Below are positions 25,122 through 47,041 of a DNA stretch of 64,000 bases, in pieces; position 1 is the first letter of the stretch, and the number at the start of each line of letters is the position of its first letter. The stretch covers positions 204,537 to 268,536 of the forward strand of contig CAYHBZ010000002.1 in assembly GCA_964355175.1 (NCBI GenBank), in the 5' to 3' direction. The notes beneath the pieces are model-generated. The model searched no databases, was not told the origin of the DNA, and saw only the letters and a program-made list of their open reading frames with translations. The position numbers were made by a program, and so were the translations under genes. The DNA comes from an uncultured Gammaproteobacteria bacterium. GTDB lineage: Bacteria; Patescibacteriota; Patescibacteriia; Magasanikbacterales; GWA2-37-8.

Positions 25122-25230
25122 CACAGTGAAAATACTCGGATAATTTGTAACTCGCTCAGCTCTGGCCCTGAACTCGTCGCTTGGCTCCTCAAACAGCAGG
25201 GCCAGCCACGCTTCACGACTCACAAATTAT
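25122..25230 (+). repeat. about 110-nt interspersed structured repeat, copy 1
   Basis: about 85% identical to 46931-47041; internal stem CTGGCCCTG ... CAGGGCCAG. Confidence 0.6.
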
Positions 25231-25309
25231 TTCCTCGTATTTTCAATGTTCACTCGTTGGAAAATGTTTTATCTCTAAAAACATTTAAATAATTTTTAAC
25301 TTTTTTTAT

Positions 25310-25630
25310 ATGGAACATATATTTACTGACGGAAATTTTAAAGTTGAGGTTTTGGAAAGCCAAGTGCCGGTGTTTGTGGATTTTTGGGCTCCTTGGTGCG
25401 GGCCTTGTCAGATGATGGGGCCGGTGGTGGAAGAATTGGCCAAAGAGCTGGAAGGTAAGAATATCAAAATTGGCAAATTGAATGTGGATGAAAATAATGA
25501 TACTTCTACGGCTTATAGCGTAATGAGTATCCCAACTTTTCTTATTTTCAAAGGCGGAGAAGTGGTGGATCAAATTACCGGTGGTGTGCAAAAGGAAAAG
25601 TTGAAGGAAATGATGTCTAAATATTTGTAA
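25310..25630 (+). CDS. trxA: thioredoxin
   Basis: WAPWCGPC active site. Confidence 0.9.
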   Translation: MEHIFTDGNFKVEVLESQVPVFVDFWAPWCGPCQMMGPVVEELAKELEGKNIKIGKLNVDENNDTSTAYSVMSIPTFLIFKGGEVVDQITGGVQKEKLKEMMSKYL

Positions 25631-25633
25631 ATT

Positions 25634-25660
25634 AATCCCGACTACGGTCGGGATTTTTTT
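25634..25660 (+). terminator. terminator/attenuator AATCCCGACTACGGTCGGGATT + T7
   Basis: CCCGAC hairpin family member abutting next start codon. Confidence 0.6.
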
Positions 25661-25975
25661 ATGTTTCCTATTGTCCTACTATTTATTGGGGGAGTGGTGC
25701 TCACCGTTGGTGATATTGTGATGAAAAAATGGGTGGTGAGCAGGGCCAATTCTTGGTATTTTTTCGGTTTGCTAATTTATATGATCGGATTAAATTTTTT
25801 GGCGCAGAGTTTTAGGTATAAGAATATTGCCGCCGCTTCTACTATTTTTGTAATTTTTAACGTGATTACTCTATCATTGGTGAGCTGGTTTTATTTTAAA
25901 GAAACTTTGTCTCCATTTCAGATTATAGGTATAGCGCTTGGTATCATAGCGATTTTATTTTTAGAGATGGCTTGA
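25661..25975 (+). CDS. small 4-TM membrane protein, SMR/DMT-like
   Basis: 104 aa, four hydrophobic helices, topology like small multidrug resistance proteins. Confidence 0.5.
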   Translation: MFPIVLLFIGGVVLTVGDIVMKKWVVSRANSWYFFGLLIYMIGLNFLAQSFRYKNIAAASTIFVIFNVITLSLVSWFYFKETLSPFQIIGIALGIIAILFLEMA

Positions 25976-26040
25976 TATTGTTGATTCTTAACTTAAATTA
26001 AGGTATAATTTATTTAATTAAAATTAATTTAACAAAATAT

Positions 26041-26409
26041 ATGAATTACTATCGAGCAGTTTTAAATAAGTATGCGGAATTCAGTGGTCGTGCTCAGAGA
26101 GCGGAATATTGGTATTTTGTTTTATGTAATTTTTTAATTGGCCTTGGTCTTATTATTATCGGCAGTATTATTTTTAGTAAAGGCGTTGGTCAAGCACTAA
26201 ATACTTTGTATAGCTTGGCAGTACTTATTCCTAGTTTGGCGGTTGGGGTAAGAAGATTACATGATATCGGGAAAAGCGGTTGGTGGTTATTTTTGGTGTT
26301 GATACCGCTAGTTGGTCCAATCTGGCTTTTGGTGTTGATGATTACTGATAGTAATCCTGGTGATAATCAGTACGGTCCAAATCCAAAAGGCGTAGTAGTG
26401 GCCAAATAA
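26041..26409 (+). CDS. DUF805 (YhaI-like) inner membrane protein
   Basis: FSGRAQRAEYWYF ... GVRRLHDIGKSGWWLFL signature. Confidence 0.75.
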   Translation: MNYYRAVLNKYAEFSGRAQRAEYWYFVLCNFLIGLGLIIIGSIIFSKGVGQALNTLYSLAVLIPSLAVGVRRLHDIGKSGWWLFLVLIPLVGPIWLLVLMITDSNPGDNQYGPNPKGVVVAK

Positions 26410-26538
26410 AAATAATTAATAATAAAATTTTTTAAAACATTCCAATTTAATTGGGATGTTTTTTGTTAATTTGCAAGGATTTTAGTGGATAATTTGCAGG
26501 TTGATTTCGCCTGCCAGATAGGGTAAAATAACCCCGCT

Positions 26539-29500
26539 ATGAAAGACTTTGTTCATCTCCATGTCCATTCGCATTATTCGCTTCTAGAAGGCTTGGCCAA
26601 GGTGCCGGAGCTTGTAAAAGCTGCCAAAAAGCGTGGTTTTTCGGCGTTGGCGCTGACTGATCATGGGAATATGTACGGGGCGATTGAGTTTTATCAGGAG
26701 TGTGAAAAAAATGATATTAAGCCAATTATTGGCACGGAAGTATATGTGGCTCCCAAAAGCCATCTCGACAGAGATGAACACGAAAATTATTCACGCTTGG
26801 TATTGCTCGCGATGGACAACGAGGGCTATCATAATTTGGTAATCCTTACTTCAATTTCTCAGACCGATGGTTTGCATATCAAGCCACGCGTGGACAAAGA
26901 ATTATTAAAAAAACACAGTGCCGGTATTGTGGCGCTCTCGGGTGGCTATGATGGCGAAGTGGCTTTGGCTATCCGCAAAGAAAATGATTTGAAAAAAGCT
27001 AAGAAGATCGCCTTGGAGTATAATAATATTTTTGGACAAGATAATTTTTATTTGGAATTAATGGATTTGCCGGCGCGTGAAGGGCAGACCGAATTAAATT
27101 CTACTTTGATTGATCTAGGTCAAGATACTGGTATCCCGCTGGTAGTCACGCGCGATGTACATTATCTAAATCCCGACGATGCGGAAGCGCAGGATGTGCT
27201 TACCTGTATTCGCGATGGTAAAAACGTGGAAGATGTTAGTCGTTATTCCATGGTGGGTTTGGATTATTCTTTTTGCAAAGCCGAAGATGTAATCAGTCGG
27301 TTTGGACACATTAAAAGTGCTATTGAGAATACCGCAAAAATCGCGGAGCGTGCCAATTTAAAATTGATTTTAAACAAGTGGCATTTCCCGCATATTGATT
27401 TGCCGCCCGGTAAAAATGCTGATGAGTATCTTAGTGATCTGGTGTATGAGCGCCTGGCAAAATTAATTAATATTGATGATAAGGCGCGCGAGCGTATTGA
27501 ATATGAACTGGGTATTATTAAAACTAAAGGCTATTCGCCATATTTTATTGTAGTGGCGGACTATGTGAATTATGCCCATGATCACGGTATTGTAGAAACT
27601 ACTCGTGGTTCTGGTGCTGGTTCTATCGTGGCTTATGGCATGGGTATTACCACTGTAAATCCGCTTTATTTTAAATTACCGTTTGAGCGTTTTTTAAATC
27701 CTTACCGTCCGAGTGCGCCGGATTTTGATGCGGATTTTGCCGATGATCGCCGTGATGAAATGATAGCGTATGTAACCAAAAAATATGGCGCTGATAAAGT
27801 GGCGCAGATTATTACTTTTGGTACTATGGCGGCGCGCGGAGCAATTCGTGATGTTGGGCGTGCTTTGGGTTATTCTTATTCTTTTTGTGACCAAGTCTCC
27901 AAGATGATCCCGATGGGTGCGCAAGGTTTTCAAATGACTTTGGATAAAGCTATGACTTTGGAAAAAGATTTAGGTGAGCTTTATAAGAAAAATCCGCAAG
28001 TACAAAGATTGATTGATTTGGCTAAAAAAATTGAAGGCTGCGCGCGTCACACTTCGATGCATGCGGCTGGTGTGGTAATTTCGCCAACAGCCCTGACCGA
28101 CTTCACTCCTATCCAATATGAAACCGGTGGTGGAAAAATTACTACACAATATGAAATGCACGCGGTAGAAGCGGCTGGTCTGCTCAAGATGGATTTTCTT
28201 GGTATTCGTAACCTTTCTATCTTGGGACGCGCTGTCGAAATCGTAGAAAAAACTACTGGCAAAAAAATTGATATTTTCAAAATTCCCTGGGACGATCAAA
28301 AAACTTATGATATGCTGTCGCGCGGTGAAACCAACAGTGTGTTTCAATTGTCTGGCTCGGGCATTACTCGCTACCTCAAAGAACTAAAGCCGTCTACTAT
28401 TTTTGATATCACCGCGATGGTGGCACTGTTTCGTCCTGGCCCGATGGAACAGATTCCAGAATATATTCGCCGTAAACATCATCCGGAAATGGTGGATTAT
28501 TTGGATCCACGCATGAAAGAATATTTGGATCAGTCTTTGGGTTTGATTGTGTATCAGGACGATGTTTTGCTTACCTCTATTCATCTGGCTGGATACAACT
28601 GGGAAGAAGCGGATAAATTTCGCAAAGCCATGGGTAAGAAAATTCCAGAAGAAATGGCGAAGCAAAAAGAAAAATTTGTAAAAGGCTGTCGCGAATTTGG
28701 TAAATTGCCGGAAGCAAAAATTCATTTGCTGTGGGAAATGATTGAACCGTTTGCGGCATATGGTTTTAATAAAGCCCATGCGGCCAGCTATGGGGTGGTG
28801 GCGTATCAGACCGCCTATATGAAGGCTAATTTCCCGGTACAGTATATGACCGCGGTGCTTATCGCGGAAAGTGGGGACATGGATAAAGTGCCGGAAATTA
28901 TCCGTGAATGTGAGCGTATGGGGGTAAAGGTAAAACCACCGGATGTAAATGAAAGTATGAAAACTTTCGCCATGATTGGTTGGGAAAATGGTGGGGAAGC
29001 GCATATTCGTTTTGGTCTAAGCGGTGTGAAAAATCTCGGCGAACACATTGCCGAAGCGATTTATAATGAGCGTCAAAATAATGGACCCTATAAAGATCTG
29101 ACTGACTTCTTGCAACGAGTGCAACATAAAGATCTGAACAAAAAGTCACTCGAGAGTCTGGCCAAATGTGGAGCTCTGGATTATTTTGGATTTGATCGTG
29201 GTGTTCTTTTGGCTAATACCGAAAATTTATTATATTTTTCCAAGAATTTTGGTGAACAACAAAGAACTTCTCAAAATTCTCTTTTTGCCGGTACTGGAAT
29301 AGACTTTTCTTCCAAGCTCCATCTAGCAAAGGCACCTAATGCCACTCAAGATGAGGTGTTGATCTGGGAAAAAGAATTGTTGGGTTTGTATGTGACTGCG
29401 CATCCGTTTGCGCCGTTTGCAGAGCAGCTGTCCTCATGTCTGACCAATATCAAAGATTTGGGTGGCTATAGCCGTAATGAATGGATTATTGTAGGCGGTA

Positions 29501-30000
29501 TCATTGATAGTGTAAAGAAAAAAATTACGCGCAGTGGTTCGCCGATGAGTTTCGTAAATATTCAGGACACTACGGATCGTCTGGAACTTTTGGTATTTCC
29601 AAAAGTTTATGAAAGAACCAAAGAGATTTGGGCCGAAGGCAGAATGGTAGTGGTAGTAGGTAAAACTTCACAGGAAGAAGGGGATAACAAACTTTTTGTA
29701 GAAAAGGCTTATGCTCTGAGTATGGAAAACGCGCCTCAGTTGGCCGCGCAGCTGGGTGGTAGCAAAAATAATTCTATCCGCCAGTATGTGTCTCCAGAAT
29801 TGGCGGAAAAAAGTTTTGAAATTAATATTGCTGCCGATCGTTTAAAAATTAAAGCCGATGGTATTAAAGCCCTGTTGGCTTCAATGCCGGGAGAGGAAGC
29901 GGTGTATTTGGTGGTAGGGGATAAGAAGATAAAAACTTCTTACAAGATACAATCAAGCCAAGAATTTAAAGACAAGCTCAGGATAATTTTAGAAAGTTGA
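26539..30000 (+). CDS. dnaE: DNA polymerase III alpha subunit
   Basis: PHP domain HLHVHSHYSLLEG, polymerase core and OB-fold; 1153 aa. Confidence 0.92.
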   Translation: MKDFVHLHVHSHYSLLEGLAKVPELVKAAKKRGFSALALTDHGNMYGAIEFYQECEKNDIKPIIGTEVYVAPKSHLDRDEHENYSRLVLLAMDNEGYHNLVILTSISQTDGLHIKPRVDKELLKKHSAGIVALSGGYDGEVALAIRKENDLKKAKKIALEYNNIFGQDNFYLELMDLPAREGQTELNSTLIDLGQDTGIPLVVTRDVHYLNPDDAEAQDVLTCIRDGKNVEDVSRYSMVGLDYSFCKAEDVISRFGHIKSAIENTAKIAERANLKLILNKWHFPHIDLPPGKNADEYLSDLVYERLAKLINIDDKARERIEYELGIIKTKGYSPYFIVVADYVNYAHDHGIVETTRGSGAGSIVAYGMGITTVNPLYFKLPFERFLNPYRPSAPDFDADFADDRRDEMIAYVTKKYGADKVAQIITFGTMAARGAIRDVGRALGYSYSFCDQVSKMIPMGAQGFQMTLDKAMTLEKDLGELYKKNPQVQRLIDLAKKIEGCARHTSMHAAGVVISPTALTDFTPIQYETGGGKITTQYEMHAVEAAGLLKMDFLGIRNLSILGRAVEIVEKTTGKKIDIFKIPWDDQKTYDMLSRGETNSVFQLSGSGITRYLKELKPSTIFDITAMVALFRPGPMEQIPEYIRRKHHPEMVDYLDPRMKEYLDQSLGLIVYQDDVLLTSIHLAGYNWEEADKFRKAMGKKIPEEMAKQKEKFVKGCREFGKLPEAKIHLLWEMIEPFAAYGFNKAHAASYGVVAYQTAYMKANFPVQYMTAVLIAESGDMDKVPEIIRECERMGVKVKPPDVNESMKTFAMIGWENGGEAHIRFGLSGVKNLGEHIAEAIYNERQNNGPYKDLTDFLQRVQHKDLNKKSLESLAKCGALDYFGFDRGVLLANTENLLYFSKNFGEQQRTSQNSLFAGTGIDFSSKLHLAKAPNATQDEVLIWEKELLGLYVTAHPFAPFAEQLSSCLTNIKDLGGYSRNEWIIVGGIIDSVKKKITRSGSPMSFVNIQDTTDRLELLVFPKVYERTKEIWAEGRMVVVVGKTSQEEGDNKLFVEKAYALSMENAPQLAAQLGGSKNNSIRQYVSPELAEKSFEINIAADRLKIKADGIKALLASMPGEEAVYLVVGDKKIKTSYKIQSSQEFKDKLRIILES

Positions 30001-30007
30001 ATGTGAT

Positions 30008-30070
30008 AAAAAGATTCTTCGCTCTGCTCGGGATGACAGTGGTGTGAAAGGGATCCTTCGCTGGCGCTCA
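30008..30070. repeat. REP-like hairpin repeat units (GATYCTTCGCT..GCTCRGGATGA), two tandem units
   Basis: related units also at 34460-34560 and 37795-37840. Confidence 0.5.
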
Positions 30071-30078
30071 GGATGAAT

Positions 30079-30110
30079 TAAAAAACCCGACTTGGTCGGG
30101 ATTTTTTAAT
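30079..30110. terminator. bidirectional terminator AAACCCGACTTGGTCGGGATTT
   Basis: CCCGAC hairpin family; between convergent dnaE and rel. Confidence 0.7.
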
Positions 30111-31623
30111 TCATTTTTTTCTCAAACAAGTCTTTTATCCAGCTGGTTCTCGAACTGTTCAGGGCGGATTTTATATGGCTTTTGGCCGCGTGAGTTTTCA
30201 CAAATTTGAGCCAGTCTGGGCTTGGGCCTTTGCGATTTTTATCAATAATGATATCCACTACATCACCACTTTTTAGCACTGAATCCAAGCTTACCATCTG
30301 ATCGTTAATCTTAGCGCCGTTACATTTATTACCTACCTCGGTATGGATATGATAAGCGAAATCAATTGGAGTGGCGTCTTCGGGCAGGTCAATCACATCA
30401 CCTTTGGGAGTAAAAACAAAAATATGATTGCGGAAAAAATCCACTTTCATTTCTTCTAGGTCTTTGAGATTGTTTAGAATTTCTTTTTGCATTTTGGCCA
30501 GTTCTTTGGCCCAATTGTAATCTTTTTTGGACGGACCTTGGCCGTGGCTATTTTTGTCATAGTTCCAATGTCCGACCGTGGCCCCGTACTCGGCTTCTTC
30601 ATGCATGGCTAGGGTACGAATTTGAAATTCTACGATTTTGCCTTCATCACAAAAAACCGTAGTGTGTAAACATTGGTATCCGTTTGGTTTTGGCTGGGCG
30701 ATATAATCTTTGATGCGGCCTTTGAGCGGCGGCCAGAGTTTGTGAATTACCCCAAGGGTGGCATAGCAATCGCCAACATCTTTTACGATGATTCTCACGG
30801 CCACGATATCGTAGATGATATTGATGTCTCCGTTTTTACGGATTAATTTTTTGTATAGACTGTATAGACTTTTTTCACGACCGTGAATATTTATGAATTT
30901 TACTTCGGCACTCTTGGATTCTTCTTCCAATCTGTCCATGATTTTTTTAAGATAAATATTGGTTTCCGCCACCTTTTCTTCGCGCATTTTTTTTACGCGT
31001 TCATATTCTTTTGGCTCCAGATATTTAAAAGAAAGATCCTCCAGTAAACTTTTGAATTCACCCATGCCTAGGCGGTTGGCAATTGGGGCGTATATCTCCA
31101 TGCTCTCCAGAGCAATGCGTTGACGTTTTTTTTCTGGCAAAGAATCTAGGGTGCTGAGATTGTGAATACGGTCGGCAAATTTGATAATCATTACACGGAT
31201 ATCTTCGGCCATGGCCACGAAAAGTTTGCGGAGATTTTCGATATAGCGCTCCATGCCACGGTATTTTAGTTTACCCAGTTTGGTAATGCCGTTTATCATG
31301 TTGGCAATATCAGGACCAAAATTTTTCTCAATTTCTTCTAGAGTCACTTCAGTGTCTTCCGGCACATCGTGCATGAGGGTAGCGATAATGATGTTTGGCT
31401 CAGCCTGGATCTGGGATAATATAAAGGCGGCGGTGGTAGGATGAACAATGTAGGGTTCGCCTGATTTTCGGAATTGTCCGGAGTGGGCTTGGGCCGCGAA
31501 ATCATAAGCTAAGCGGACGGTTTCAATGTCGCTGTCGGTGCAGTATTTTTGGAGATTTTTCACTACTTCCTCAATGGTAGAGGATCTGGGAATAGTGAGG
31601 TGGGAAATCAGAAATTTATCCAT
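30106..31623 (-). CDS. rel: bifunctional (p)ppGpp synthetase/hydrolase Rel/SpoT homolog (HD + synthetase + TGS)
   Basis: HD motif HDVPEDT, RelA/SpoT synthetase domain, C-terminal TGS-like region. Confidence 0.85.
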   Translation of the reverse strand: MDKFLISHLTIPRSSTIEEVVKNLQKYCTDSDIETVRLAYDFAAQAHSGQFRKSGEPYIVHPTTAAFILSQIQAEPNIIIATLMHDVPEDTEVTLEEIEKNFGPDIANMINGITKLGKLKYRGMERYIENLRKLFVAMAEDIRVMIIKFADRIHNLSTLDSLPEKKRQRIALESMEIYAPIANRLGMGEFKSLLEDLSFKYLEPKEYERVKKMREEKVAETNIYLKKIMDRLEEESKSAEVKFINIHGREKSLYSLYKKLIRKNGDINIIYDIVAVRIIVKDVGDCYATLGVIHKLWPPLKGRIKDYIAQPKPNGYQCLHTTVFCDEGKIVEFQIRTLAMHEEAEYGATVGHWNYDKNSHGQGPSKKDYNWAKELAKMQKEILNNLKDLEEMKVDFFRNHIFVFTPKGDVIDLPEDATPIDFAYHIHTEVGNKCNGAKINDQMVSLDSVLKSGDVVDIIIDKNRKGPSPDWLKFVKTHAAKSHIKSALNSSRTSWIKDLFEKKMN

Positions 31624-31694
31624 ATTTTTTGATGTATTAATTATATCATTTATTTGGCTAATTGCAACTGAAACTTGACAAAAGGCCTATTTAG

Positions 31695-32095
31695 TGGTAG
31701 TATTAGTCCTGTTTATAGTGGATGATCGTCCCCGACCTAGTCGGGGGAGGAAAGTCCGAACACTTTCTTTGAAAAAAGAAAAAAGGCAGTGGGTAACGCC
31801 CACCGGTTTGGCGGCAACGTCAAACAAGGGAAAGCGGCACAGAGACAATACTACCCCGACTCAGTCGGGGGAAAGGTGAAAAGAATATGGAAGTTCTGAC
31901 TCTAGAACAGAGCTACCATATACCGACCGTTGTGAGACGGTCTGGTGCCAAGCCCTGCCTGGGTGCAAGAGCAGCCTATGAGAGAGACATAGGAAAAGTT
32001 CGCTCGCTTGATTTTGGTAGCAATACCAGAGCTAGATAAATGATCGTCGTGTCTTGCTAAACACAAGATTTACAGAATTCGGCTTATAGCTGTAA
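31695..32095 (+). ncRNA. rnpB: RNase P RNA (bacterial type A)
   Basis: P4 halves GAGGAAAGTCCG and ACAGAATTCGGCTTAT; GGGTAACGCC, ACAGAGACAAT, GGTGAAAAG conserved blocks; P3 hairpin CCCCGACCTAGTCGGGG; ends approximate. Confidence 0.8.
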
Positions 32096-32103
32096 ACAAA
32101 AAA

Positions 32104-32132
32104 GACCTTTGAGAAATCGAAGGTCTTTTTAT
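32104..32132 (+). terminator. terminator hairpin AAAGACCTTTGAGAAATCGAAGGTCTTTTT after rnpB
   Basis: hairpin plus T-run. Confidence 0.6.
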
Positions 32133-32234
32133 TTTTTTACAATAAAACTTGCTTTTCTAGTCTATTTATGATAAAACCTATGCTAGTTGTCTCACTGCCT
32201 GAGATCGGTTGTCGGTCTCGTGGAGGGCATCGCC

Positions 32235-32450
32235 ATGGGTAACTGGACGGACTTCGCCATTTTAGGTTTGCTGATCATCTTGGCTAGCGCGGTGTTTCCG
32301 GAGCTCGGCTTGGTTGCGTTCTTGACGGGCATCGTCTTGTTGCTCGTCGCGGCCAACATCGTGTTCAAGGATTGGGCCTTGCGCCAGGGCTGGCTGAAGC
32401 ACCTCAATGAGGATCAGCGTCGGCTCGTGATCGCGATGGAGGAGGACTAG
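32235..32450 (+). CDS. GC-rich (about 58%) 71-aa two-TM membrane protein
   Basis: SD GGAGGG upstream of ATG (MGNWTDFAILG...); GC-rich cassette in AT-rich flank. Confidence 0.5.
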   Translation: MGNWTDFAILGLLIILASAVFPELGLVAFLTGIVLLLVAANIVFKDWALRQGWLKHLNEDQRRLVIAMEED

Positions 32451-32508
32451 TTCCTTCTGACTCTTCCTAGGGAACCCAGCTTCGGCCAGTGGGCGTAGGG
32501 GGGATAAT

Positions 32509-32577
32509 AAAAAACCACCTGCGACCTGCTCTAGGATTAAATATTTTTTAATCTTGGAGCAGCAGGTGGTTTTTTTG
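32509..32577 (+). terminator. long terminator hairpin (ACCACCTGC...GCAGGTGGT) with T-run
   Basis: seen in sequence. Confidence 0.6.
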
Positions 32578-32591
32578 TTTCTAAATTTATT

Positions 32592-34445: not shown

Positions 34446-34459
34446 AAATGATTTTCTTT

Positions 34460-34560
34460 ATATAAATTAATCTGTCATCCCGAACGAATACTGTCATTCC
34501 GAATTTAATGAGGAATCTTTTAATAAGATCCCTCTCTACGCTCGGGATGACAAAGTAGCA
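34460..34560. repeat. cluster of REP-like hairpin units (TGTCATCCCGARCG..) in both orientations
   Basis: units TGTCATCCCGAACGAAT, TGTCATTCCGAAT..., and GATCCCTCTCTACGCTCGGGATGACA. Confidence 0.5.
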
Positions 34561-34613
34561 TTCAAAATGACAAAGAGTGTCCCGACTAAGTCGGGGTAAA
34601 TAATATTGTATCG

Positions 34614-34697: not shown

Positions 34698-34702
34698 GAT
34701 TT

Positions 34703-36902: not shown

Positions 36903-37033
36903 AAACTGAAAATTTAAGCCTATAATATAGAGCTTATAGTGGTTATAATTATATCATGAACGACTGACAGTGTCAATGGCAGTATTGATTTATTTTAAAT
37001 TGTGGTATAATATGACTGCTTAATATATAACCT

Positions 37034-37789: not shown

Positions 37790-37847
37790 CAGCTTTAACT
37801 GTCATCCTGAGGGAGTTGAAACGACCGAAGGATCCCTATTGTATATT

Positions 37848-39314: not shown

Positions 39315-39324
39315 ATAAATTTAT

Positions 39325-42165
39325 ATGCAAAAAAATAATCACGATAAACTCATTATCAAGGGTGCCCGTGTGCACAATCTCAAAAATATCAGTATTGAGA
39401 TTCCAAAAAATAAATTGGTGGTTTTGACCGGTCTTTCCGGCTCCGGTAAATCTTCGCTCGCTTTTGATACCATCTATGCTGAGGGTCAGCGTCGTTATGC
39501 GGAGTCGCTGTCGGCCTACGCGCGTCAATTTATGGATGTGCAGGATAAGCCGGCCGTGGACTCTATTGATGGCTTGTCGCCAACTATCGCGATTGATCAG
39601 AAAATTTCCACCCAAAATCCTAGATCGACCGTAGGTACTACTACGGAGATTTATGATTATATGCGCTTGTTGTTCGCTCGTGCCGGTACGCAATACTGTC
39701 CGGATTGTCACGAAGTGGCGCAATCCAACACCACCGGTGAAATCGTGGAACAGGCCAGAAAATTGGCGCGCACCAGTGCCCCGGTTTTAATTTTGTGTCC
39801 TTTGGTTCGTAATAATGTGGTAGATTTGAAAAGCGCACTCGAAATAGTAGAACGCTCTGGCTATGATACTGTGCGTCTAGATGGCAAATCTCTCAAAATT
39901 CATGATTTGATAAAATGTCATTTTGAACCAAATGAAAAACACGACTTGGAAATAATCGTGGGCAAAATAGCCGATGTCAAAAAGGATGATCCTTTCAAGG
40001 CTGTGAATATAGCGATTGATTTGAGTAATGGTAGCTGTGTGCTTTCGGCCGATGGGGATGATCATTTCTTTACCACTTTTGCTTATTGCAGTAAGTGCGG
40101 CCGCAAGATGCCGGAATTGGATGTGCGCAGTTTTAGTTTTAATAGTCCGTTTGGGGCTTGTCCGCGCTGTACCGGTTTGGGTGTCACTATGGAAGTGGAC
40201 GCGGAGCTCGTGATGCCAAATACCAGACTGTCTTTGTCTGAAGGAGCGATTCAGCCTTGGATGCGTATTACCGGTAATCAAGTTTGGTATACCAAATTAT
40301 TGCACGCCGTCGCCGCTAAACAAAATTTTTCTCTGGATTTGCCGGTGGCTGATTTGCCTTCGCGCGTGCTTGATATGATTTTATATGGTACCGGTAGTGA
40401 TATATATGAGATTGAAAATAAAAAAGTTAGTTTTAGTGGGGTAGTGTCGGATCTGCTCAAGCGCCATCTCGAAACCACTTCGGAATATGTGCGCAAAGAG
40501 ATCGAGCAATATATGCGCGAAAAGACTTGTCCGGTTTGTCAGGGCAAGCGTTTGCGTCAGGAATCGCTATGGGTAAAAATTAAGGATTTTAATGTCGCTG
40601 ATTTGTCGGCTCTGAGTATTGATGAAGATATAGAGATGTTAAAAAAATACGAAGACAATGATAAAAATAAAGATAATATTAAAGGAAAGATTTTTGAAAC
40701 TATAATAAAAGAATTAAAACCGCGTTTGCGTAATTTGTCGCAAGTTGGTTTGGGCTATTTGAGTCTGGACCGCTCTATGAATACACTGTCGGGCGGTGAA
40801 GTGACCCGTGTGCGTCTGGCTACCCAGTTGTCTTCGGGATTGACGGGAGTTATTTATGTATTGGATGAACCATCGGTTGGTCTGCATTCTCGCGATAATG
40901 AAAAATTGATTTCTACTCTGAAATATTTGCGTGATTTGGGAAATAGCGTGCTCGTCGTAGAGCATGACAGCGCGATGATGGCCGCGGCTGATTATCTGAT
41001 TGATGTTGGTCCTGGTGCTGGAATTTATGGCGGTAAAATTATTGCCGAAGGTACTTATGAACAGATAAAGAAAAATAAAAATTCTCTTACCGGCGCGTAT
41101 CTCAGCGGTCGTGAATCAATTTATGAAAAACCGACCAAAGCTAAAGTCGCCAAAGACGCGGCTGATAAAAAGAATAAAAAAGAAAAGTTTCTGTCTTTGA
41201 TTGGCGCCTCGGCTTTTAATTTAAAAAATATTTCGGTGGATATTCCTCTCAATAAGACCGTGTGCGTGACGGGTGTTTCCGGTTCCGGTAAATCAACCTT
41301 GGTTATCAATATTTTGGCCGCGGCTTTGAACAAACATTTTTTCCGCAGTAAAGAAGAGCCGGGAGCTTATAAAGAAATAAAAGGTTTGGAAAATATTGAT
41401 AAAGTAATTTCAATTGATCAAGTGCCAATTGGGCGCACGCCGCGCTCCAATCCGGCTACATATACCGGTATTTTCACTTTGATTCGTGATTTATTTTCGG
41501 CATTGCCAGAAGCACGCATGCGCGGCTATGATGCCGGTAAATTTAGTTTCAATGTCAAAGGCGGCGGTCGTTGTGAAGCTTGTGCCGGCGAAGGCTATGT
41601 GCGCATTCCGATGCAATTTTTGGCGGATGTGTTTATGACCTGTAATGAATGTAATGGTACGCGATATAATCAAGAAGTGTTGGAAGTGCATTATCTAGAT
41701 AAAAATATTGCCGAGGTTTTGGGCATGACCGTAGAAGAAGCCTATAAATTTTTTAGCGCTGTGCCGACTTTGGCAGAAAAATTAAATATTTTACGTAATG
41801 TCGGTTTGGGTTATTTGGCTTTGGGTCAGCCGGCCACCACTTTGTCTGGCGGTGAAGCTCAGCGTATCAAGCTCGCTACCGAATTGGCGCGAGTTTCTAC
41901 CGGTAATACTTTATATATTTTGGATGAGCCTACCACTGGTTTGCATTTTGAAGATATTAAAAGATTGCTCGCGGTATTGAAACAACTTTCCGATAAAGGT
42001 AATACCGTGCTGATCATCGAACATAATACCGATGTGATAAAATCTTGTGATTGGGTAATCGAGCTTGGTCCTGAGGGTGGTAAAGGTGGCGGTGAATTGG
42101 TGTTTGCCGGTTTGCCGGAAGATCTAAAGAAAAGTAAAAATAGTTGGACTGCGAAGTATCTGTAA
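39325..42165 (+). CDS. uvrA: excinuclease ABC subunit A
   Basis: two ABC ATPase modules, zinc fingers, LSGGE signatures; 946 aa. Confidence 0.92.
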
Positions 42166-42174
42166 TCACAAAAA

Positions 42175-42210
42175 TAAAAAAATCCCTCTTAAATAAGAGG
42201 GATTTTTGTT
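42175..42210. terminator. bidirectional terminator AAATCCCTCTTAAATAAGAGGGATTT
   Basis: hairpin with A- and T-runs between convergent uvrA and rplS. Confidence 0.7.
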
Positions 42211-42215
42211 TAATT

Positions 42216-42566
42216 TTATTTCTTTACTTCTTTCTTTTTCACGTCGCTTAGTTTGCGTTTGAAGTCTTTGTTGCGGAGGTAGTTGAGGCGAGCGCGGCGC
42301 ACTGCCAATTGTTTTACTACTTCGATCTTTTCTACTACTGGAGAGTAAATAGGGAAGATTTTTTCTACGCCGATACCTTCAGAAACTTTGCGAACAGTGA
42401 TGGTAGAGCCGGTTTCGTTTCCATGACGAGCGGCGATAATAGTGCCTTCGTAGATCTGGACACGTTCTTTTTCTTCACCTTTGGTGTTGGTTTCTTTAAT
42501 TTTTTGGTGAACTTTTACCACCATGCCCGGCTTGTAGATCATAGCCGTTTTAGTATTTTCAGTCAT
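42216..42566 (-). CDS. rplS: 50S ribosomal protein L19
   Basis: [27 protein letters not shown] signature. Confidence 0.85.
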
Positions 42567-42639
42567 AAGATTATTTTAGCTTTTAACAGTGGGCTTATTT
42601 TAGCCGATTTTTTTGATTTTGTCAATATCTCTGGGTCGA

Positions 42640-43209
42640 TTAACCTTTTTTGTGGTAAGAAGTGATAATTTTGGCTACGTTGTCAATAGTTTCGTCCAAA
42701 TTCCCGGCCTGGTTCACTACCTGAAATTGGTATTCATCGGCCGCCTGAATCTCTTTTTTGGCAGTTTCTAGGCGCAGAGCCAGCTCGGCTTCGTTCACGC
42801 CACCGCGATTGAGGATGCGCTTTTTGAGGTCATCTAAATTGTTTGGAACCAAAAATATGGATAAATTTTCTATGCCGGACTCAGTGTAATTGCGTCGTCC
42901 TTGGATATCCACATTGGAGAACACAACATCAAAATTTTGTAATTTATTTTCTAGTTCGGATTTTTGTACGCCATAATAATTTTCGGCATAGGTGGCGTAT
43001 TCCATCATCTCGCCATTTTTTATTTTATTTTCAAAATCAGCTCGGCTGATGAAATAATAAGTCGTACCTTCGCTGTCTTCGGGGCGAGGCGATCGGGTGG
43101 TGGTGGTGACCAATTTGGCCGAGTGCGGAATTATTTTTATCAATTCACGAATTACGGCGTCTTTGCCGCCGCCCGATGGTGAAGAAATGATGACAAATAA
43201 TCCGGCCAT
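42640..43209 (-). CDS. gmk: guanylate kinase
   Basis: P-loop SSPSGGGKD, TTTRSPRPEDSEGTTYYF, YGVQ motif. Confidence 0.8.
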   Translation of the reverse strand: MAGLFVIISSPSGGGKDAVIRELIKIIPHSAKLVTTTTRSPRPEDSEGTTYYFISRADFENKIKNGEMMEYATYAENYYGVQKSELENKLQNFDVVFSNVDIQGRRNYTESGIENLSIFLVPNNLDDLKKRILNRGGVNEAELALRLETAKKEIQAADEYQFQVVNQAGNLDETIDNVAKIITSYHKKG

Positions 43210-43210
43210 A

Positions 43211-44176
43211 TTATTTTAGCAAAAGCAAAAAGTCAGCGAGTGGTTTTGGTAGAGTAGATTGGAATTCTTGTCGGTCGCCGTCGAGGTCCACAAAAGCCAA
43301 TCGGACACAATGTAAAAATAATCGTCCGCAAACTTTGTCCCAGCGGTCTTTGCGTTTTTTCTGAAAGTATAAAGGGTCGCCCACGACCGGGTGATTGTAG
43401 GCCAAAAGATGGGCGCGAATTTGGTGCATGCGACCGGTATGAATTTTTACTTTGAGCAGAGTGAAATTAATAAAACGTTTTTCTACATCAAAGTCGGTGA
43501 GGGCTTCTTTGCCCAAAGTATTTACTCGGCCATATTCAGTGGCGGGCAGAGCAGACATTCTTTCCACATTACGGCCACGTTCGAGCGGGAAATTGATACT
43601 ATCAAAATCTTTGCTCGTTTTTCCGTGGGCCAATACGAGGTATTCTTTTTCTACGGTACGGTTTTTAAATTGATCTTTGAGGTGTTCAAACATTTTTTGG
43701 GTGCGGGCTACCACCAAAAGACCGGAAGCTTCTTTATCGAGGCGGTGCACGATGCCGGGACGCTTGGGATCGTCGCCGACTTTTTTTAAACCAGGATATT
43801 TTTTGGCCAGCATACTAGCCAATGAATCCGGTTCATTTTTGTCGGTAGAGTGGGTGAGTAGGCCGTAAGGTTTTTCTACCACCAGATAATCCGGAGTTTC
43901 TTTAATAATATTAATATGGAATTTTTCTTTTTTTACTTTCTCCTCTTTAACGGTAAGTTTTTTTTCTGGCTCAGCTTTGTTTACTATTACTTTGTCGGTG
44001 GCGCGGATAGAGCCGCCGGTTTTGGTGACTATTTTTCCATTTACAGTTACTTGGGCGTTATCAATTAATTTTTTTATTTGTGAACGCGAAATTTTTAGTT
44101 TGGCGGATAAAAAAAGATCGAGGCGTTGTGAAGGCATGGCTTTCTGCTCGTGATTTTTTTTGGCAATTTTTTTCAT
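43211..44176 (-). CDS. rluD: RluA-family 23S rRNA pseudouridine synthase (RluD-like) with S4 domain
   Basis: S4 RNA-binding N-term, HRLDKEASGLLVVA catalytic motif. Confidence 0.8.
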   Translation of the reverse strand: MKKIAKKNHEQKAMPSQRLDLFLSAKLKISRSQIKKLIDNAQVTVNGKIVTKTGGSIRATDKVIVNKAEPEKKLTVKEEKVKKEKFHINIIKETPDYLVVEKPYGLLTHSTDKNEPDSLASMLAKKYPGLKKVGDDPKRPGIVHRLDKEASGLLVVARTQKMFEHLKDQFKNRTVEKEYLVLAHGKTSKDFDSINFPLERGRNVERMSALPATEYGRVNTLGKEALTDFDVEKRFINFTLLKVKIHTGRMHQIRAHLLAYNHPVVGDPLYFQKKRKDRWDKVCGRLFLHCVRLAFVDLDGDRQEFQSTLPKPLADFLLLLK

Positions 44177-44761
44177 TTAGATAGATAGTTTGATCCGTGG
44201 AGGAGCAGGTCTCATCCCTCCTTTTGGTAAATTGGAAATAAGAGGATTATTTTTATTTCTAATGGAGCTGGCAATGCCGCCGGAAGCTTGAATTGTTTGA
44301 CCGGCCGAGATCATCCTGGTCTGATCGCCGATCTGACTGACCTTGGCCGATTTCTGTATGCCGGCAATTGAGGTGACGCCATGCGATTGGATGTCATCTT
44401 CGGCGCGAATTATTTCGCGGCGAATCACCGGTTTCATCAGGTGGTGGCTGAGTTTTTTTACAGCTTCGTGTTCGGTGGCACTGAGGTGTTCGCCTTTCAT
44501 CGCCGCTTCGTGACTGATTTTGTGCATCATATTTTCGGCCTGATGTTTGGACAGACCGCCGCGTCGAATTAGGTGCTGATTTTTTAGAACTATAGAATTT
44601 ATGGCTTCTACCGCTATTTTATTTTCCCTTAGCGTGCCCATGCCGTGATAATTATTATTGATGGCACTGTGAAGTTTGCCGGCAAAGCCGGAAGTATTTT
44701 TAGCATGAAATGACAAGCCTGGTTTGGCGGTAGATGTATTGAAATGTTCTAAAATTGACAT
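44177..44761 (-). CDS. hypothetical His/Lys-rich protein
   Basis: ORF abuts rluD; start trimmed to MSILEHFN to avoid tRNA overlap. Confidence 0.35.
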   Translation of the reverse strand: MSILEHFNTSTAKPGLSFHAKNTSGFAGKLHSAINNNYHGMGTLRENKIAVEAINSIVLKNQHLIRRGGLSKHQAENMMHKISHEAAMKGEHLSATEHEAVKKLSHHLMKPVIRREIIRAEDDIQSHGVTSIAGIQKSAKVSQIGDQTRMISAGQTIQASGGIASSIRNKNNPLISNLPKGGMRPAPPRIKLSI

Positions 44762-44776
44762 ATATAAAAAATATTG

Positions 44777-44849
44777 TGCGCCCAGATGGGATTGAACCAT
44801 CGACCTATTGCTTATAAGACAATTGCTCTAACCACTGAGCTATGGGCGC
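44777..44849 (-). tRNA. tRNA-Ile (anticodon UAU)
   Basis: hand-folded: acceptor GCGCCCA/TGGGCGC, D-arm TAGCTCAGTGGTTAGAGCA, anticodon loop CTTATAA, T-arm GGTCGATGGTTCAATCCCATC. Confidence 0.75.
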
Positions 44850-45514
44850 GTTTTAATGTAGTTATCTCTAATTGATTTCAAGGCCATCATTACTTTTTCA
44901 TTTAATCTTGCGTCACCAATTTTCACATTACAAGTACCATGTCCGAAACCACCTTTATGAGTTATGTTTTTTAATAAAGTTTTTTTAATATATGGTTTTA
45001 CAAATTGTTTTGTTGGGATGTTTAGAGTTTCCGACCAATAATTAGTTTCTGTTTCTATTTTCATATCTTCGTATAAGTGAAGATATACTTTTAATTCTGT
45101 TTTTGGGACATTCAAAATTGTTGTAAGCCAAATAATAAAAAATTTTATTAAAGCAGGGTCGGTATTCGACATATTTAAATCAGCAGTGTGTGTTTTTGTA
45201 CCTTCTCCCCAATATAGAAATAGACCGCACAGATATAGAGCCTTTTTTTGTATAGGAAAGATATTCTTTTTCTCAATTAAATAAGTATTTTTTAATCGAG
45301 CATCCCTTTTGGCCTTCATTGTTTCTCGAAATCTTTCAATCCTTAATTCGTTCGTGTCTCTTAATTCCCGGATGCGTTCTTTGGACAAAGGGTATTCTCT
45401 GAGCCAATAACTTAGTGTGCCTTTACTGACATTTAGTTTATTTTTTATTTGACTATAGCTCATTCCTTCTTTTCTTAGGTCCATAGCCATTTTTCGTTTT
45501 ATACCTAGAGACAT
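44840..45514 (-). CDS. HTH-domain protein with LAGLIDADG-like motif (possible degenerate homing-endonuclease-like protein)
   Basis: N-terminal HTH (MSYSQIKNKLNVSKGTLSYWLREY), central LYLCGLFLYWGEGTK resembles LAGLIDADG motif; 3' end overlaps tRNA-Ile by about 10 nt. Confidence 0.4.
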   Translation of the reverse strand: MSLGIKRKMAMDLRKEGMSYSQIKNKLNVSKGTLSYWLREYPLSKERIRELRDTNELRIERFRETMKAKRDARLKNTYLIEKKNIFPIQKKALYLCGLFLYWGEGTKTHTADLNMSNTDPALIKFFIIWLTTILNVPKTELKVYLHLYEDMKIETETNYWSETLNIPTKQFVKPYIKKTLLKNITHKGGFGHGTCNVKIGDARLNEKVMMALKSIRDNYIKTRP

Positions 45515-45670
45515 AATTGAACTATCAATATTAATGAATTATTAGTATTCATTAGTTCATTTTACCACATTAATTTTGAAAGAACAAGAAGTTGTAGGGG
45601 CATTATACCAGTTTTGAGCAAAAATTCAAGGGTTGCCAAGCGGGTGGAAAATTGGTAAAATTAGAGCACT

Positions 45671-46204
45671 ATGAATTGGAATACGAAGTTATTTTTGAAG
45701 ATTAACACCCTGGTAGGCAAGAATCGCTGGCTGGATGCTTTTGGGCGTGCCGGAGCGGAATGGGTGATCATTGGAATGGGTGGTTGGTATGTGGCGATTA
45801 GTTTTATTTTGCATTACGGCAATCCTTATCTGATGTGGCTGCCAATTTTTACCCTGGCCGGTGCCGAATTGGTCGGATTATTTTTCAGTAACATGATTGG
45901 TCTGATCGTGCATGAAGTACGTCCTCGCTTAAGTATTCCTGAGATCAAAATTTTATTTATGCCGGCGTCTTTATGGAAATCTTTTCCATCCGATCACGCG
46001 ATGTCGGCGTTTTTGATTTTTTTAATGGCAATTATTTTCGGGTTTCCGACCGCGCTTGGACTTTTACCTCTGGTACTGTGGGTTTGCTGGGGTAGAGTTT
46101 ATAGCGGCGTGCATTATCCCGGCGATATTTTGGGCGGGCTGACTTTGGCGGCCTTTGTATCGGTCTTGGCCTGCGCGGTTTTATTGCGTTTTAATTTTAT
46201 TTAA
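45671..46204 (+). CDS. PAP2-family membrane phosphatase (undecaprenyl-diphosphatase-like)
   Basis: PAP2 motifs: KxxxxxxRP (HEVRPRL), PSDH (SFPSDHAMS), SGVHYPGD. Confidence 0.75.
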   Translation: MNWNTKLFLKINTLVGKNRWLDAFGRAGAEWVIIGMGGWYVAISFILHYGNPYLMWLPIFTLAGAELVGLFFSNMIGLIVHEVRPRLSIPEIKILFMPASLWKSFPSDHAMSAFLIFLMAIIFGFPTALGLLPLVLWVCWGRVYSGVHYPGDILGGLTLAAFVSVLACAVLLRFNFI

Positions 46205-46205
46205 T

Positions 46206-46898
46206 ATGAAAGCGATTATTTTGGCCGGAGGACTGGGTACACGGTTGCGTCCTTTGACGGATAATACACCAAAACCATTATTACCGGTAAAAGGAAAACC
46301 AATAATTGAGCACGCGATTTTGAATTTTAAAAAACACGGAATTGAAGATATTATTTTGTCGATTGGCTATAAGGCCGATATTATCAAAGAATATTTTGGT
46401 GATGGCAGTAAATACGGAGTAAAGATTAGTTATTGTATTGAAGATCAGCCGATGGGTACTGGCGGTGCTTTGAAAATGGCCTCGGCCGGGATAGATGAAA
46501 CTTTCGTAGCTATCAATGGTGATAATTTGGCGGACTTTGATTGGACAGCGGCGATTGAAACTCATAAGAAAAATAATGCCAAAGTGACTCTGCAACTTTT
46601 TCCGGTGGAGGATGTGACCAAGTTTGGTATCGCTCGTTTGGATGATGGCCGAATTATAGAATTTATTGAAAAGCCGACAGTAGAGCAGGCACCGTCCAAT
46701 CTCAATAATGCGGGCGGGTATATTTTGGAGCCGGAAGTTTTGGCTGTTTTGTCAGATGGGTTTTGTATGATTGAGAGGGATTGTTTTGAGAAGTTGGCGG
46801 CGACTGGCGTGGTGTATGCGCATCATCATATTGGGCAGTGGTTTCCGACGGATACGATTGAGAAATATTCTTTGGCTGACAGGGAGTTTAATCCATAG
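46206..46898 (+). CDS. sugar-phosphate nucleotidyltransferase (mannose-1-P guanylyl / glucose-1-P thymidylyl-transferase-like)
   Basis: MKAIILAGGLGTRLRPLT signature; start at internal Met of ORF. Confidence 0.75.
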   Translation: MKAIILAGGLGTRLRPLTDNTPKPLLPVKGKPIIEHAILNFKKHGIEDIILSIGYKADIIKEYFGDGSKYGVKISYCIEDQPMGTGGALKMASAGIDETFVAINGDNLADFDWTAAIETHKKNNAKVTLQLFPVEDVTKFGIARLDDGRIIEFIEKPTVEQAPSNLNNAGGYILEPEVLAVLSDGFCMIERDCFEKLAATGVVYAHHHIGQWFPTDTIEKYSLADREFNP

Positions 46899-46930
46899 TT
46901 TCGTCGGCCGTAAATATCTGCCTGTTCTCT

Positions 46931-47041
46931 CACTGTGAAAATATTTGAATAATTTGCAACTCCCTGAGCCTCTGGCCGTGAACTCGTCGCTTGGCTCCTC
47001 AGACAGCACGGCCAGCCACGGCTCTGGGACTCACAAATTAT
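46931..47041 (+). repeat. about 110-nt interspersed structured repeat, copy 2
   Basis: homologous to 25122-25230; stem CTGGCCGTG ... CACGGCCAG carries compensatory changes relative to copy 1. Confidence 0.6.

What the first reader, a model, noticed from the sequence alone, without database searches (positions are those of the whole stretch)
25122..47041. 110-nt interspersed repeat family whose internal stem shows compensatory mutations
Copies at 25122-25230 (after infB) and 46931-47041 (after the nucleotidyltransferase gene) are about 85% identical. The 9-bp helix CUGGCCCUG/CAGGGCCAG in copy 1 becomes CUGGCCGUG/CACGGCCAG in copy 2. This is a double change that preserves pairing, so selection acts on RNA or DNA secondary structure. 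Both copies lie on the coding strand immediately 3' of a gene. That is compatible with a 3'UTR-derived sRNA, a REP/BIME-like element, or a small non-autonomous mobile element.
Basis: seen in the sequence. Interest (0 to 1): 0.55.

Follow-up and report, generated by a model that had tools for sequence, protein, structure and literature searches.

The report
Mobile palindromic hairpin element with conserved cap
The two repeats are copies of a roughly 190-base fold-back DNA element that has recently jumped between genes in a tiny uncultured (CPR) bacterium, and the tip of its hairpin carries a short purine-rich motif also found on unrelated hairpins in many bacterial phyla and phages.

Summary
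Both copies exist, share 84% identity, and show the C>G/G>C swap in the 9-bp helix. Each is one ~180-bp imperfect palindrome (folding z = -8.9 and -6.9), inside an inserted block of ~195-210 nt.

Further copies occur in other Candidatus Magasanikbacteria assemblies. Across four full copies, 11 of 42 pairs changed on both sides (shuffles 5.8 ± 1.6).

Copy 1 is a recent insertion. Seven infB-trx loci from relatives (IF2 84-99% identical) have an 11-41 nt spacer there. Copy 2 is older, present in two relatives and absent in two. This fits a small non-autonomous mobile element, not a 3'UTR sRNA.

Three points are new:
- The core and apex are conserved while the basal stem is copy-specific, the reverse of REPINs.
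- Arm mismatches are almost all G·A on the strand antisense to the genes, so that strand folds best.
- The apical loop shares a 17-nt motif, TCGTCGCTTSGCTCCTC, with hairpins of arbitrary stem sequence. It gave at least 120 viral-contig stretches versus 7 for a reversed control, and its commonest small-hairpin form occurs in plasmids of three phyla. I found no Rfam family or paper for it.

No mobilising enzyme was found. RNA versus ssDNA remains open.

The parts
25087..25283 (.). Copy 1, the whole inserted block between the infB stop and the ancestral infB-trx spacer. Boundaries are good to about 10 nt.
   Evidence: Seven infB-trx loci from relatives (IF2 84-99% identical) have only 11-41 nt here and no palindrome.
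25100..25273 (-). Copy 1 long hairpin (subfamily B). The copy-specific outer stem is 25100-25114 / 25259-25273.
   Evidence: Fold z = -8.94. The - strand gives -74.9 versus -59.0 kcal/mol for the + strand. Arm alignment.
25162..25205 (.). Copy 1 apical module: 9-bp stem 25162-25170 / 25197-25205 and 26-nt loop 25171-25196 (AACTCGTCGCTTGGCTCCTCAAACAG).
46899..47106 (.). Copy 2, the whole inserted block between the NTP-transferase stop and the ancestral ATAG-ATG junction of yceG. It has a 7-nt 5' tail and a 3' tail of about 20 nt (TCCTCTAAGTTTTTAAATTT...).
   Evidence: Empty sites are L143 (TAA ATAG ATG) and L142 (overlapping ATGA). Orthologous filled sites are L138 and L139.
46906..47086 (-). 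Copy 2 long hairpin (subfamily A). The outer stem is 46906-46919 / 47072-47086.
   Evidence: Fold z = -6.94. The sequence is identical in an independent assembly, L134. Contig L135 starts inside it.
46972..47015 (.). Copy 2 apical module: stem 46972-46980 / 47007-47015 carrying the compensated C>G/G>C, and loop 46981-47006.
   Evidence: The ortholog L138 keeps CCC/GGG, so the swap arose in the copy-2 lineage.

Best explanation
Each copy is a 180-195 bp fold-back (imperfect palindrome) DNA element. It is non-coding and non-autonomous, and it is mobile within Candidatus Magasanikbacteria genomes. It lands as a complete hairpin in the few bases between one gene's stop codon and the next gene's start codon.

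Its layout is the reverse of a REPIN. The roughly 130-nt core and the apex are conserved. These comprise two helices, a conserved purine-purine internal loop, a 9-bp apical stem and a 26-nt loop. The 15-24 bp basal stem differs in every copy but is almost perfectly paired.

The strand antisense to the flanking genes is the one built to fold. On that strand nearly all arm mismatches are tandem G.A/A.G. Its apex reads GAGGA-GC-CAA-GC-GACGAG, a small rod of G.A pairs capped by a GC-NAA-GC turn.

My inference is that the element moves through a single-stranded DNA hairpin. That hairpin would be recognised by a structure-specific enzyme encoded elsewhere in the genome. An HUH/Y1 enzyme of the RAYT or IS200/IS605 type is the leading candidate. 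Pairing would then be maintained by selection for that hairpin together with templated arm-to-arm correction.

Shown: the anatomy, multiple copies, two subfamilies, insertion polymorphism, covariation, strand asymmetry, and the cross-phylum distribution of the cap.

Inferred: the ssDNA intermediate, the class of enzyme, and the reason the base differs between copies.
For: - **Whole-hairpin insertion.** Copy 1 is absent from L136 (IF2 99%), L137, L011 and L012 (98%), L009 and L010 (90%) and L013 (84%). Copy 2 is present in L138 and L139 and absent in L143 and L142.
- **Other copies at unrelated loci.** These are L001, L003 and the end of L013. Contigs L013, L135, L138 and L139 all break inside the element.
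- **Two subfamilies, each shared between genomes**.
- **Covariation.** 91% of cells are paired. 11 pairs changed on both sides against 5.8 ± 1.6 in shuffles (0 of 500 reach the observed value) and 1-4 when partners are slid.
- **Almost no one-sided G.U intermediates in the core**.
- **Strand asymmetry.** Mismatches are 34 C/T oppositions versus 4 G/A on the + strand. The - strand is more stable in 3 of 4 copies with both RNA and DNA parameters.
- **Not coding.** There are frameshifting indels between copies, and no ORF of the element is in the protein collection.
- **No Rfam family**. **No promoter or terminator consensus in the core**.
- **Cap motif on stems of arbitrary sequence.** At least 120 viral-contig stretches against 7 for the reversed control. 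Its commonest small-hairpin form is also in plasmids of Alpha- and Gammaproteobacteria and Cyanobacteria.
- **No orientation bias of the cap relative to genes.** 10 same-strand, 9 antisense, 8 mixed, which favours a DNA-level element.
Against: - No transposase or HUH gene was found in the window or the neighbouring 10 kb (gene tables).
- No clear target-site duplication or target motif. There is only a possible ATAG at copy 2.
- Only 2 copies were seen in 74 kb of this genome.
- All 4 copies with a known downstream gene are co-directional with it.
- Between orthologs, the core stems are about 95% identical while yceG third codon positions are 77% identical. This could mean a host function, for example as RNA, rather than selfish mobility.
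- The L138 ortholog has a different apical loop, so the cap is not indispensable for persistence.
- Copies with about 93% identical cores have unrelated basal stems, which simple cut-or-copy transposition of the whole hairpin does not explain.
Confidence: 0.55

Rival explanations
1. The element is a structured RNA acting in the transcript. It might be an RNase III processing site, a stabiliser hairpin between co-transcribed genes, or a free small RNA. Its spread to several loci would be secondary.
For: It lies inside operon spacers, so it must be transcribed with infB-trx and ntp-yceG. Four of four copies are co-directional with the downstream gene. The core is more conserved than synonymous sites between orthologs. 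There is strong covariation. Perfect stems of 20 bp or more are typical RNase III substrates (general knowledge).
Against: The mRNA-sense strand is the poorer folder, with C.U/U.C mismatches where the antisense strand has G.A. G.U pairs are almost absent from the core. No promoter is seen for an antisense transcript and no terminator. There is no Rfam match. Close relatives do without copy 1. The related cap hairpins show no orientation preference relative to genes.
Confidence: 0.2
2. The variable basal stems are pre-existing palindromes such as terminators, and the conserved core (or just the cap) inserts into the apex of hairpins, building nested palindromes.
For: The second long hairpin of the window (14543-14743) is exactly this. 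Relative L011 has a 26-bp terminator palindrome at that site, and the window has about 140 nt inserted at its apex. The middle stem of copy 1 (AAAATACTCGGAT) resembles that terminator stem (AAAATACCTCGGAT). The 17-nt cap sits on stems of arbitrary sequence. L007 shares only the 26-nt loop with the CPR copies.
Against: The empty sites of copy 1 (five different spacer sequences) and of copy 2 (a 4-nt spacer or overlapping genes) contain no palindrome. The basal stems therefore arrived with, or were made during, insertion.
Confidence: 0.1
3. It is a host-useful DNA hairpin, for example a priming or replication signal, a nucleoid-protein site or a recombination site. It would be spread by recombination rather than by transposition.
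For: In the commonest form of the cap motif, the purine strand contains GCGAAGC. This is the hyperstable DNA mini-hairpin reported at ssDNA phage priming origins (PMC13037366). The core sequence is conserved between orthologs.
Against: The window copies have GCCAAGC, which lacks the sheared G.A of the mini-hairpin. Copy 1 is dispensable in 99%-identical relatives. The loci are unrelated. No positional pattern could be tested.
Confidence: 0.1
4. It is a neutral duplicated segment, a chance similarity or an assembly artefact.
For: Only two copies are in the window. Hairpins can be produced by amplification or assembly errors.
Against: The sequence is identical in an independent assembly (L134). 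Orthologous copies occur in other samples. Copies occur in other MAGs. Covariation exceeds all controls. A 21-mer match is expected 0.00 times by chance.
Confidence: 0.02

Closest known systems
REPINs / REP-BIME elements mobilised by RAYT transposases (Bertels & Rainey 2011, PMC3116915)
   Same: Short non-coding extragenic elements that fold into a long hairpin in ssDNA or mRNA. Compensatory changes on the two arms are common. They are non-autonomous and persist in a lineage.
   Different: In REPINs the two ends (inverted REP 16-mers) are the conserved part and the central spacer varies. Here the centre is conserved and the base varies. No RAYT gene was seen. Copy number looks low. The mechanism is untested.
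Bacterial palindromic MITEs (Correia/NEMIS of Neisseria, RUP of Streptococcus pneumoniae, Rickettsia palindromic elements). Comparison from general knowledge.
   Same: Size of 100-200 bp, non-coding, multi-copy, hairpin-forming, presence/absence polymorphism between strains, and insertion next to or between genes so that they are co-transcribed.
   Different: Classical MITEs have conserved terminal inverted repeats matching a parent IS, and a direct target-site duplication. Here the termini are copy-specific, and no convincing duplication or parent IS was found.
IS200/IS605-type ssDNA 'peel and paste' transposition and its palindrome-only derivatives. Comparison from general knowledge.
   Same: Strand-specific imperfect hairpins with conserved mismatches, no terminal inverted repeats in the usual sense, and no target duplication. 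These match the strand asymmetry and the lack of a duplication seen here.
   Different: Those elements carry two separate subterminal hairpins and insert next to a fixed 4-5 nt target. Here there is one long hairpin, and no shared target motif was found.
GCGNAGC / GCGAAGC DNA mini-hairpin (Hirao; review PMC13037366)
   Same: In the commonest form of the cap motif, the purine strand reads GAGGA-GCGAAGC-GACGA, which contains exactly this hyperstable turn.
   Different: The window copies and L007 carry GCCAAGC (C at position 3), so the sheared G.A of the mini-hairpin is lost. The flanking tandem G.A rod is not part of the described motif.
IS elements that target palindromes (IS1397/ISKpn1 into REP loops; IS110/IS1111 members into REPs or attC). 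Comparison from general knowledge.
   Same: Insertion at the apex of an existing palindrome, as seen for the second hairpin at 14543-14743.
   Different: Those are full-length IS elements with transposase genes. Here the inserts are 140-190 nt, non-coding and themselves palindromic.

Membership tests
REPIN (REP doublet / RAYT system) | Two highly conserved inverted REP sequences at the ends, with a less conserved spacer in the middle | tested here: not met
   The ends (basal stems) are unrelated between copies, and the centre is 84-93% conserved.
REPIN (REP doublet / RAYT system) | Long hairpin with compensatory changes on the two arms | tested here: met
   91% of cells paired. 11 pairs changed on both sides against 5.8 ± 1.6 in shuffles.
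REPIN (REP doublet / RAYT system) | A cognate RAYT (Y1 transposase) gene in the genome, usually flanked by REPs | not testable with these tools
   None was found in the 64-kb window or the adjacent 10 kb (gene tables). The rest of the 953-kb genome could not be read.
Classical MITE | Conserved terminal inverted repeats derived from an autonomous IS | tested here: not met
   The termini differ in every copy. No IS is present in the window.
Classical MITE | Direct target-site duplication | tested here: inconclusive
   Filled and empty sites were compared. Nothing was found at copy 1. There is a possible ATAG at copy 2. Junctions are blurred by divergence.
Classical MITE | Short, non-coding, multi-copy, with presence/absence polymorphism | tested here: met
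Any Rfam RNA family (including 6S, SRP, sRNAs) | Covariance-model match | tested here: not met
   Nothing at gathering score, and only miRNA/snoRNA noise at E up to 10. Loci carrying the commonest small-hairpin form of the cap also gave no match.
Intrinsic terminator | GC-rich stem of modest length followed by a U run | tested here: not met
   No terminator-like site at either copy. The real terminators of this genome look different (family D1).
Integron attC site | Conserved core sites at the base of the hairpin with a variable centre | tested here: not met
   The layout is the opposite: variable base, conserved centre. The attC definition is from general knowledge.
GCGNAGC DNA mini-hairpin | G-C, C-G and a sheared G.A closing a 1-2 nt turn (GCGAAGC) | tested here: not met
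   The window copies read GCCAAGC on the - strand. The commonest form of the cap motif does read GCGAAGC (PMC13037366).

The most novel reading that the evidence does not exclude
The 17-26 nt purine-rich cap (GAGGAGC[G/C]AAGCGACGA on the folding strand) may mark an undescribed class of hairpin elements found across bacteria and carried by phages. The class would be defined by its loop rather than its stems. It would range from 35-nt REP-like units (GGATTGC-cap-GCAATGAC) to 190-nt fold-back elements such as this one. The cap would be either recognised by one conserved structure-specific enzyme or delivered to the apex of existing palindromes by a mechanism not yet known.
Probability: 0.25. Interest if true: 0.75.

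Novelty: new variant of a known kind. Interest (0 to 1): 0.5.

Why it matters
CPR bacteria have very small, tightly packed genomes, and I found little published on mobile repeats in them (one loosely related paper). This element inserts into spacers of 0-40 nt, and in one case it split two genes that overlap in relatives. That shows such genomes tolerate and propagate long palindromes. It also explains why metagenome contigs break at these sites.

The reversed layout (conserved apex, free base) and the strand-specific G·A design give a concrete handle for finding the enzyme that recognises it.

The cap motif links this element to thousands of unannotated small hairpins in cultivated Proteobacteria, Cyanobacteria and phages. 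I found no Rfam family or paper for them. If they share one mechanism, it would be a widespread and overlooked piece of bacterial genome biology.

Tried and rejected
- **Protein-coding.** Six-frame translations show frameshifting indels between copies. A profile of the longest shared frame found nothing among 5.8 billion proteins. None of six ORFs overlapping the element is in the collection.
- **Known RNA families.** Rfam at gathering score and at E up to 10 gave only miRNA/snoRNA noise. 6S and SRP were considered because of the rod shape, but there is no model match and copy 1 is dispensable in relatives.
- **Base-pairing target for the loop in the window.** Only the copies themselves match.
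- **Collection scans for more copies.** The genome scan gave 2 true copies plus one 21-mer-only hit in an acidobacterial MAG (L002, status unclear). The metagenome scan gave 1 true relative (L007) and 4 chance hits in GC-rich coding DNA. An 18-nt stretch of the loop exactly as in the window copies gave no viral hit. The whole element gave no plasmid hit.
- **Walking the genome.** An extra 10 kb upstream of the window holds no copy.
- **Basal stems derived from the ancestral spacer or from flanking coding sequence.** No convincing match by eye.
- **Literature.** Searches by translated peptide strings, by DNA strings and by CPR plus MITE found nothing relevant.
- **Transposase search.** Pfam and PHROG scans of unannotated window ORFs found none.
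Full report
**Observation.**
Both copies are real and lie on the + strand. They align at 84% mean column identity over about 190 columns. A shared 21-mer occurs twice against 0.00 expected by chance. The 9-bp helix is CTGGCCCTG/CAGGGCCAG (25162-25170 / 25197-25205) in copy 1. In copy 2 it is CTGGCCGTG/CACGGCCAG (46972-46980 / 47007-47015). The reported double change is therefore correct.

The "110-nt" size is an underestimate. Each copy is one long imperfect palindrome, at 25100-25273 and 46906-47086. RNA folding gives -60.4 and -71.1 kcal/mol, with z = -8.94 and -6.94, and no shuffle folds as well.

**Anatomy.**
From base to tip the hairpin has these parts:
- a basal stem of 15-24 bp that is nearly perfect but unrelated in sequence between copies;
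- a conserved internal loop of about 10 x 10 nt;
- a helix of about 22 bp (TGAAAATAYTYGRATAATTTG);
- a short helix;
- a 3' bulge (CCAC);
- the 9-bp apical stem;
- a 26-nt loop, AACTCGTCGCTTGGCTCCTCAAACAG, which is identical apart from one position in all full copies.

**Host and other copies.**
IF2 homologs place the window in a Candidatus Magasanikbacteria (CPR) genome with a 953-kb contig. A scan of one genome per species found full copies in two other Magasanikbacteria MAGs, L001 and L003. A profile search of all fetched DNA found a truncated copy at the end of contig L013.

The copies fall into two subfamilies: c2/L003/L138 and c1/L001/L013. Each subfamily is shared between genomes. Four contigs from independent assemblies start or stop inside the element (L013, L135, L138, L139). 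This is what a repeat or a strong hairpin does to short-read assembly. An independent assembly of the same genome, L134, has copy 2 base for base, so it is not an artefact.

**Mobility.**
The infB-trx spacer is 223 nt in the window. In seven loci from relatives it is 11-41 nt:
- L136 (IF2 99% identical);
- L137, L011 and L012 (98%);
- L009 and L010 (90%);
- L013 (84%).

None of these spacers contains a palindrome. Copy 1 is therefore a recent insertion of about 195 nt, and the inserted block includes its copy-specific basal stem.

Copy 2 is older. Orthologous copies lie upstream of yceG in L138 (YceG 91%) and L139 (76%). In L143 the two genes are 4 nt apart, and in L142 they overlap (ATGA). 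I could not establish a target-site duplication. Nothing is visible at copy 1, and there is only a possible ATAG at copy 2.

No transposase is encoded in the window or in the adjacent 10 kb (and the gene tables).

**Pairing is maintained.**
On the four full copies, 91% of cells form standard pairs. Eleven of 42 pairs changed on both sides, against 5.8 ± 1.6 in column shuffles (0 of 500 reach the observed value) and 1-4 when partners are slid. In the conserved core, no pair shows a one-sided change that still pairs, such as G-C to G-U. Changes are either compensated or break the pair.

This does not by itself prove selection on structure. Templated arm-to-arm correction of quasi-palindromes (established in E. 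coli genetics; from general knowledge) creates both changes at once. The same kind of swap occurs in an ordinary terminator palindrome between this genome and L011 (CCACG/CGTGG versus CCTCG/CGAGG).

Constraint is nevertheless evident between orthologs:

| Region compared (c2 versus L138) | Identity |
|---|---|
| Core stems | about 95% |
| Basal arm | 79% |
| yceG third codon positions | 77% |
| Spacer tail | 66% |

**Which strand.**
Aligning each 5' arm with the reverse complement of its 3' arm shows that mismatches are overwhelmingly pyrimidine-pyrimidine on the + strand. There are 34 C/T oppositions against 4 G/A. On the - strand these become G·A/A·G, often in tandem.

Accordingly, the - strand folds better in three of four copies and equally in c2:

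| Parameters | c1 (- / +) | L001 (- / +) | L003 (- / +) |
|---|---|---|---|
| RNA | -74.9 / -59.0 | -71.7 / -50.8 | -91.0 / -78.9 |
| DNA | -37.5 / -34.4 | -33.7 / -26.8 | -51.4 / -44.5 |

On that strand the "loop" can itself stack as [G·A A·G] G-C [G·A A·G] GC-CAA-GC. The folding strand is antisense to the flanking genes. This argues against a 3'UTR RNA.

**The cap is not private to this family.**
A metagenome contig with Bacteroidota-type genes (L007) has the same 26-nt loop, with one difference, on completely different stems.

Its reversed control hit 7. About 49 of 109 distinct sites are closed directly by a stem of 4 bp or more. The stem sequences are arbitrary, for example ATTGC/GCAAT, ATTCT/AGAAT, GGATATGAAATATCCC and a 33-bp stem. 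In the sites whose stems score above the control, there are 173 Watson-Crick pairs, no G·T pairs and 3 A·C oppositions.

The commonest form is a small hairpin, GGATTGC-cap-GCAATGAC. It occurs unannotated in plasmids of Methylosinus, Methylocystis, Novosphingobium, Halomonas, Legionella, Calothrix and Aulosira, and in gut phage records. Its purine strand contains GCGAAGC, the hyperstable DNA mini-hairpin (PMC13037366). The window copies have GCCAAGC instead.

The intergenic hairpin-type sites show no orientation preference relative to neighbouring genes: 10 same-strand, 9 antisense and 8 mixed. No Rfam family covers them, and no paper was found by sequence strings.

**A second fold-back insertion.**
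The window's other long hairpin, 14543-14743 (53-nt arms, 96% complementary), sits where L011 has a 26-bp bidirectional-terminator palindrome. About 140 nt, bounded by GATTTTTTACC...GGTAAAAAATC, was inserted exactly at the apex of that palindrome. Apex-targeted insertion therefore happens in this genome. For the family under study, however, the empty sites have no palindrome.

**Mechanism.**
I commit, at about 0.55, to a non-autonomous mobile DNA element. It would transpose through a strand-specific ssDNA hairpin recognised by an enzyme encoded elsewhere, most likely of the HUH/Y1 class by analogy with REP/RAYT and IS200/IS605.

Shown: mobility, hairpin maintenance, strand asymmetry, and the lack of coding capacity and of known RNA or terminator features.

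Inferred: the intermediate and the enzyme.

Unexplained:
- Copies with about 93% identical cores have unrelated, nearly perfect basal stems. Possible causes are fast compensated drift, fold-back synthesis or template switching.
- The L138 ortholog has swapped its apical loop.

The main rival, at 0.2, is a function as RNA in the operon transcript. This is suggested by the co-orientation with downstream genes (4 of 4) and by the conservation of the core.

**Novelty.**
The element is REPIN/MITE-like in behaviour but fails the defining layout of both families, because its ends are variable and its centre is conserved. I classify it as a new variant of a known kind. The cross-phylum cap motif is the part most likely to be new.

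Noticed in passing
window 14543-14743: A second long hairpin of about 200 nt with an unrelated sequence (53-nt arms, 96% complementary, MFE -103 kcal/mol). Relative L011 has only a 26-bp terminator palindrome at this site. The window has about 140 nt inserted exactly at the apex of that palindrome, and the stem shows a compensated A>T/T>A change. It is single-copy in all DNA fetched.
   Followed up: partly
window 51477-51530, 55715-55780, 56638-56702 (+): Three type III hammerhead ribozyme matches: 52.1 bits (above gathering score), and 40.0 and 35.3 bits (E = 3e-6 and 6.5e-5). They lie in a 6-kb block of genes of unknown function, including a DUF4407 protein, with repeated promoter-like segments (52005-52069 / 54366-54430). 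A similar gene block is present in relative L139.
   Followed up: partly
window 30012-30038, 34526-34552 and 34468-34486: Small hairpins of the type TGTCATCCC-GAGCGTAGAGAG-GGGATC (on the - strand), one pair in inverted orientation next to a tRNA gene. They look like small relatives of the GA-rich cap family. From memory, similar units appear translated in the L003 SMC ORF (...PAEAGIQ...) and upstream of thrS in L001 (MDSRFRGND...).
   Followed up: partly
L007 ~6085-6185 (- strand): A contig with Bacteroidota-type genes (DUF1599, DoxX-like) carries a 90-nt hairpin with an A-run and a U-run. Its loop is the same 26-nt sequence as in the CPR element, but its stems are entirely different.
   Followed up: partly
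window 12883-13168 and 16523-17654: Two gene-sized insertions relative to the 98% relative L011. One is a 69-aa ORF with its own TTGACA/TATAAT promoter. The other is an inositol-monophosphatase-family gene.
   Followed up: no
L136 and L143 (both GCA_026396535.1): The same MAG holds an IF2 99% identical to the window's but a YceG only 68% identical. This suggests a mixed bin or recombination, and means its 'empty sites' may come from two different strains.
   Followed up: no
window 7792-7936 and 31710-32102: An AdoCbl riboswitch (63 bits) and bacterial RNase P class A RNA (177 bits). Both are ordinary annotations.
   Followed up: no
L002 4560-4680: A Sulfotelmatobacter (Acidobacteriota) MAG shares the exact 21-mer GAACTCGTCGCTTGGCTCCTC inside a GC-rich structured intergenic stretch (z = -2.3). 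It is unclear whether this is a distant relative of the cap family or a chance match.
   Followed up: no
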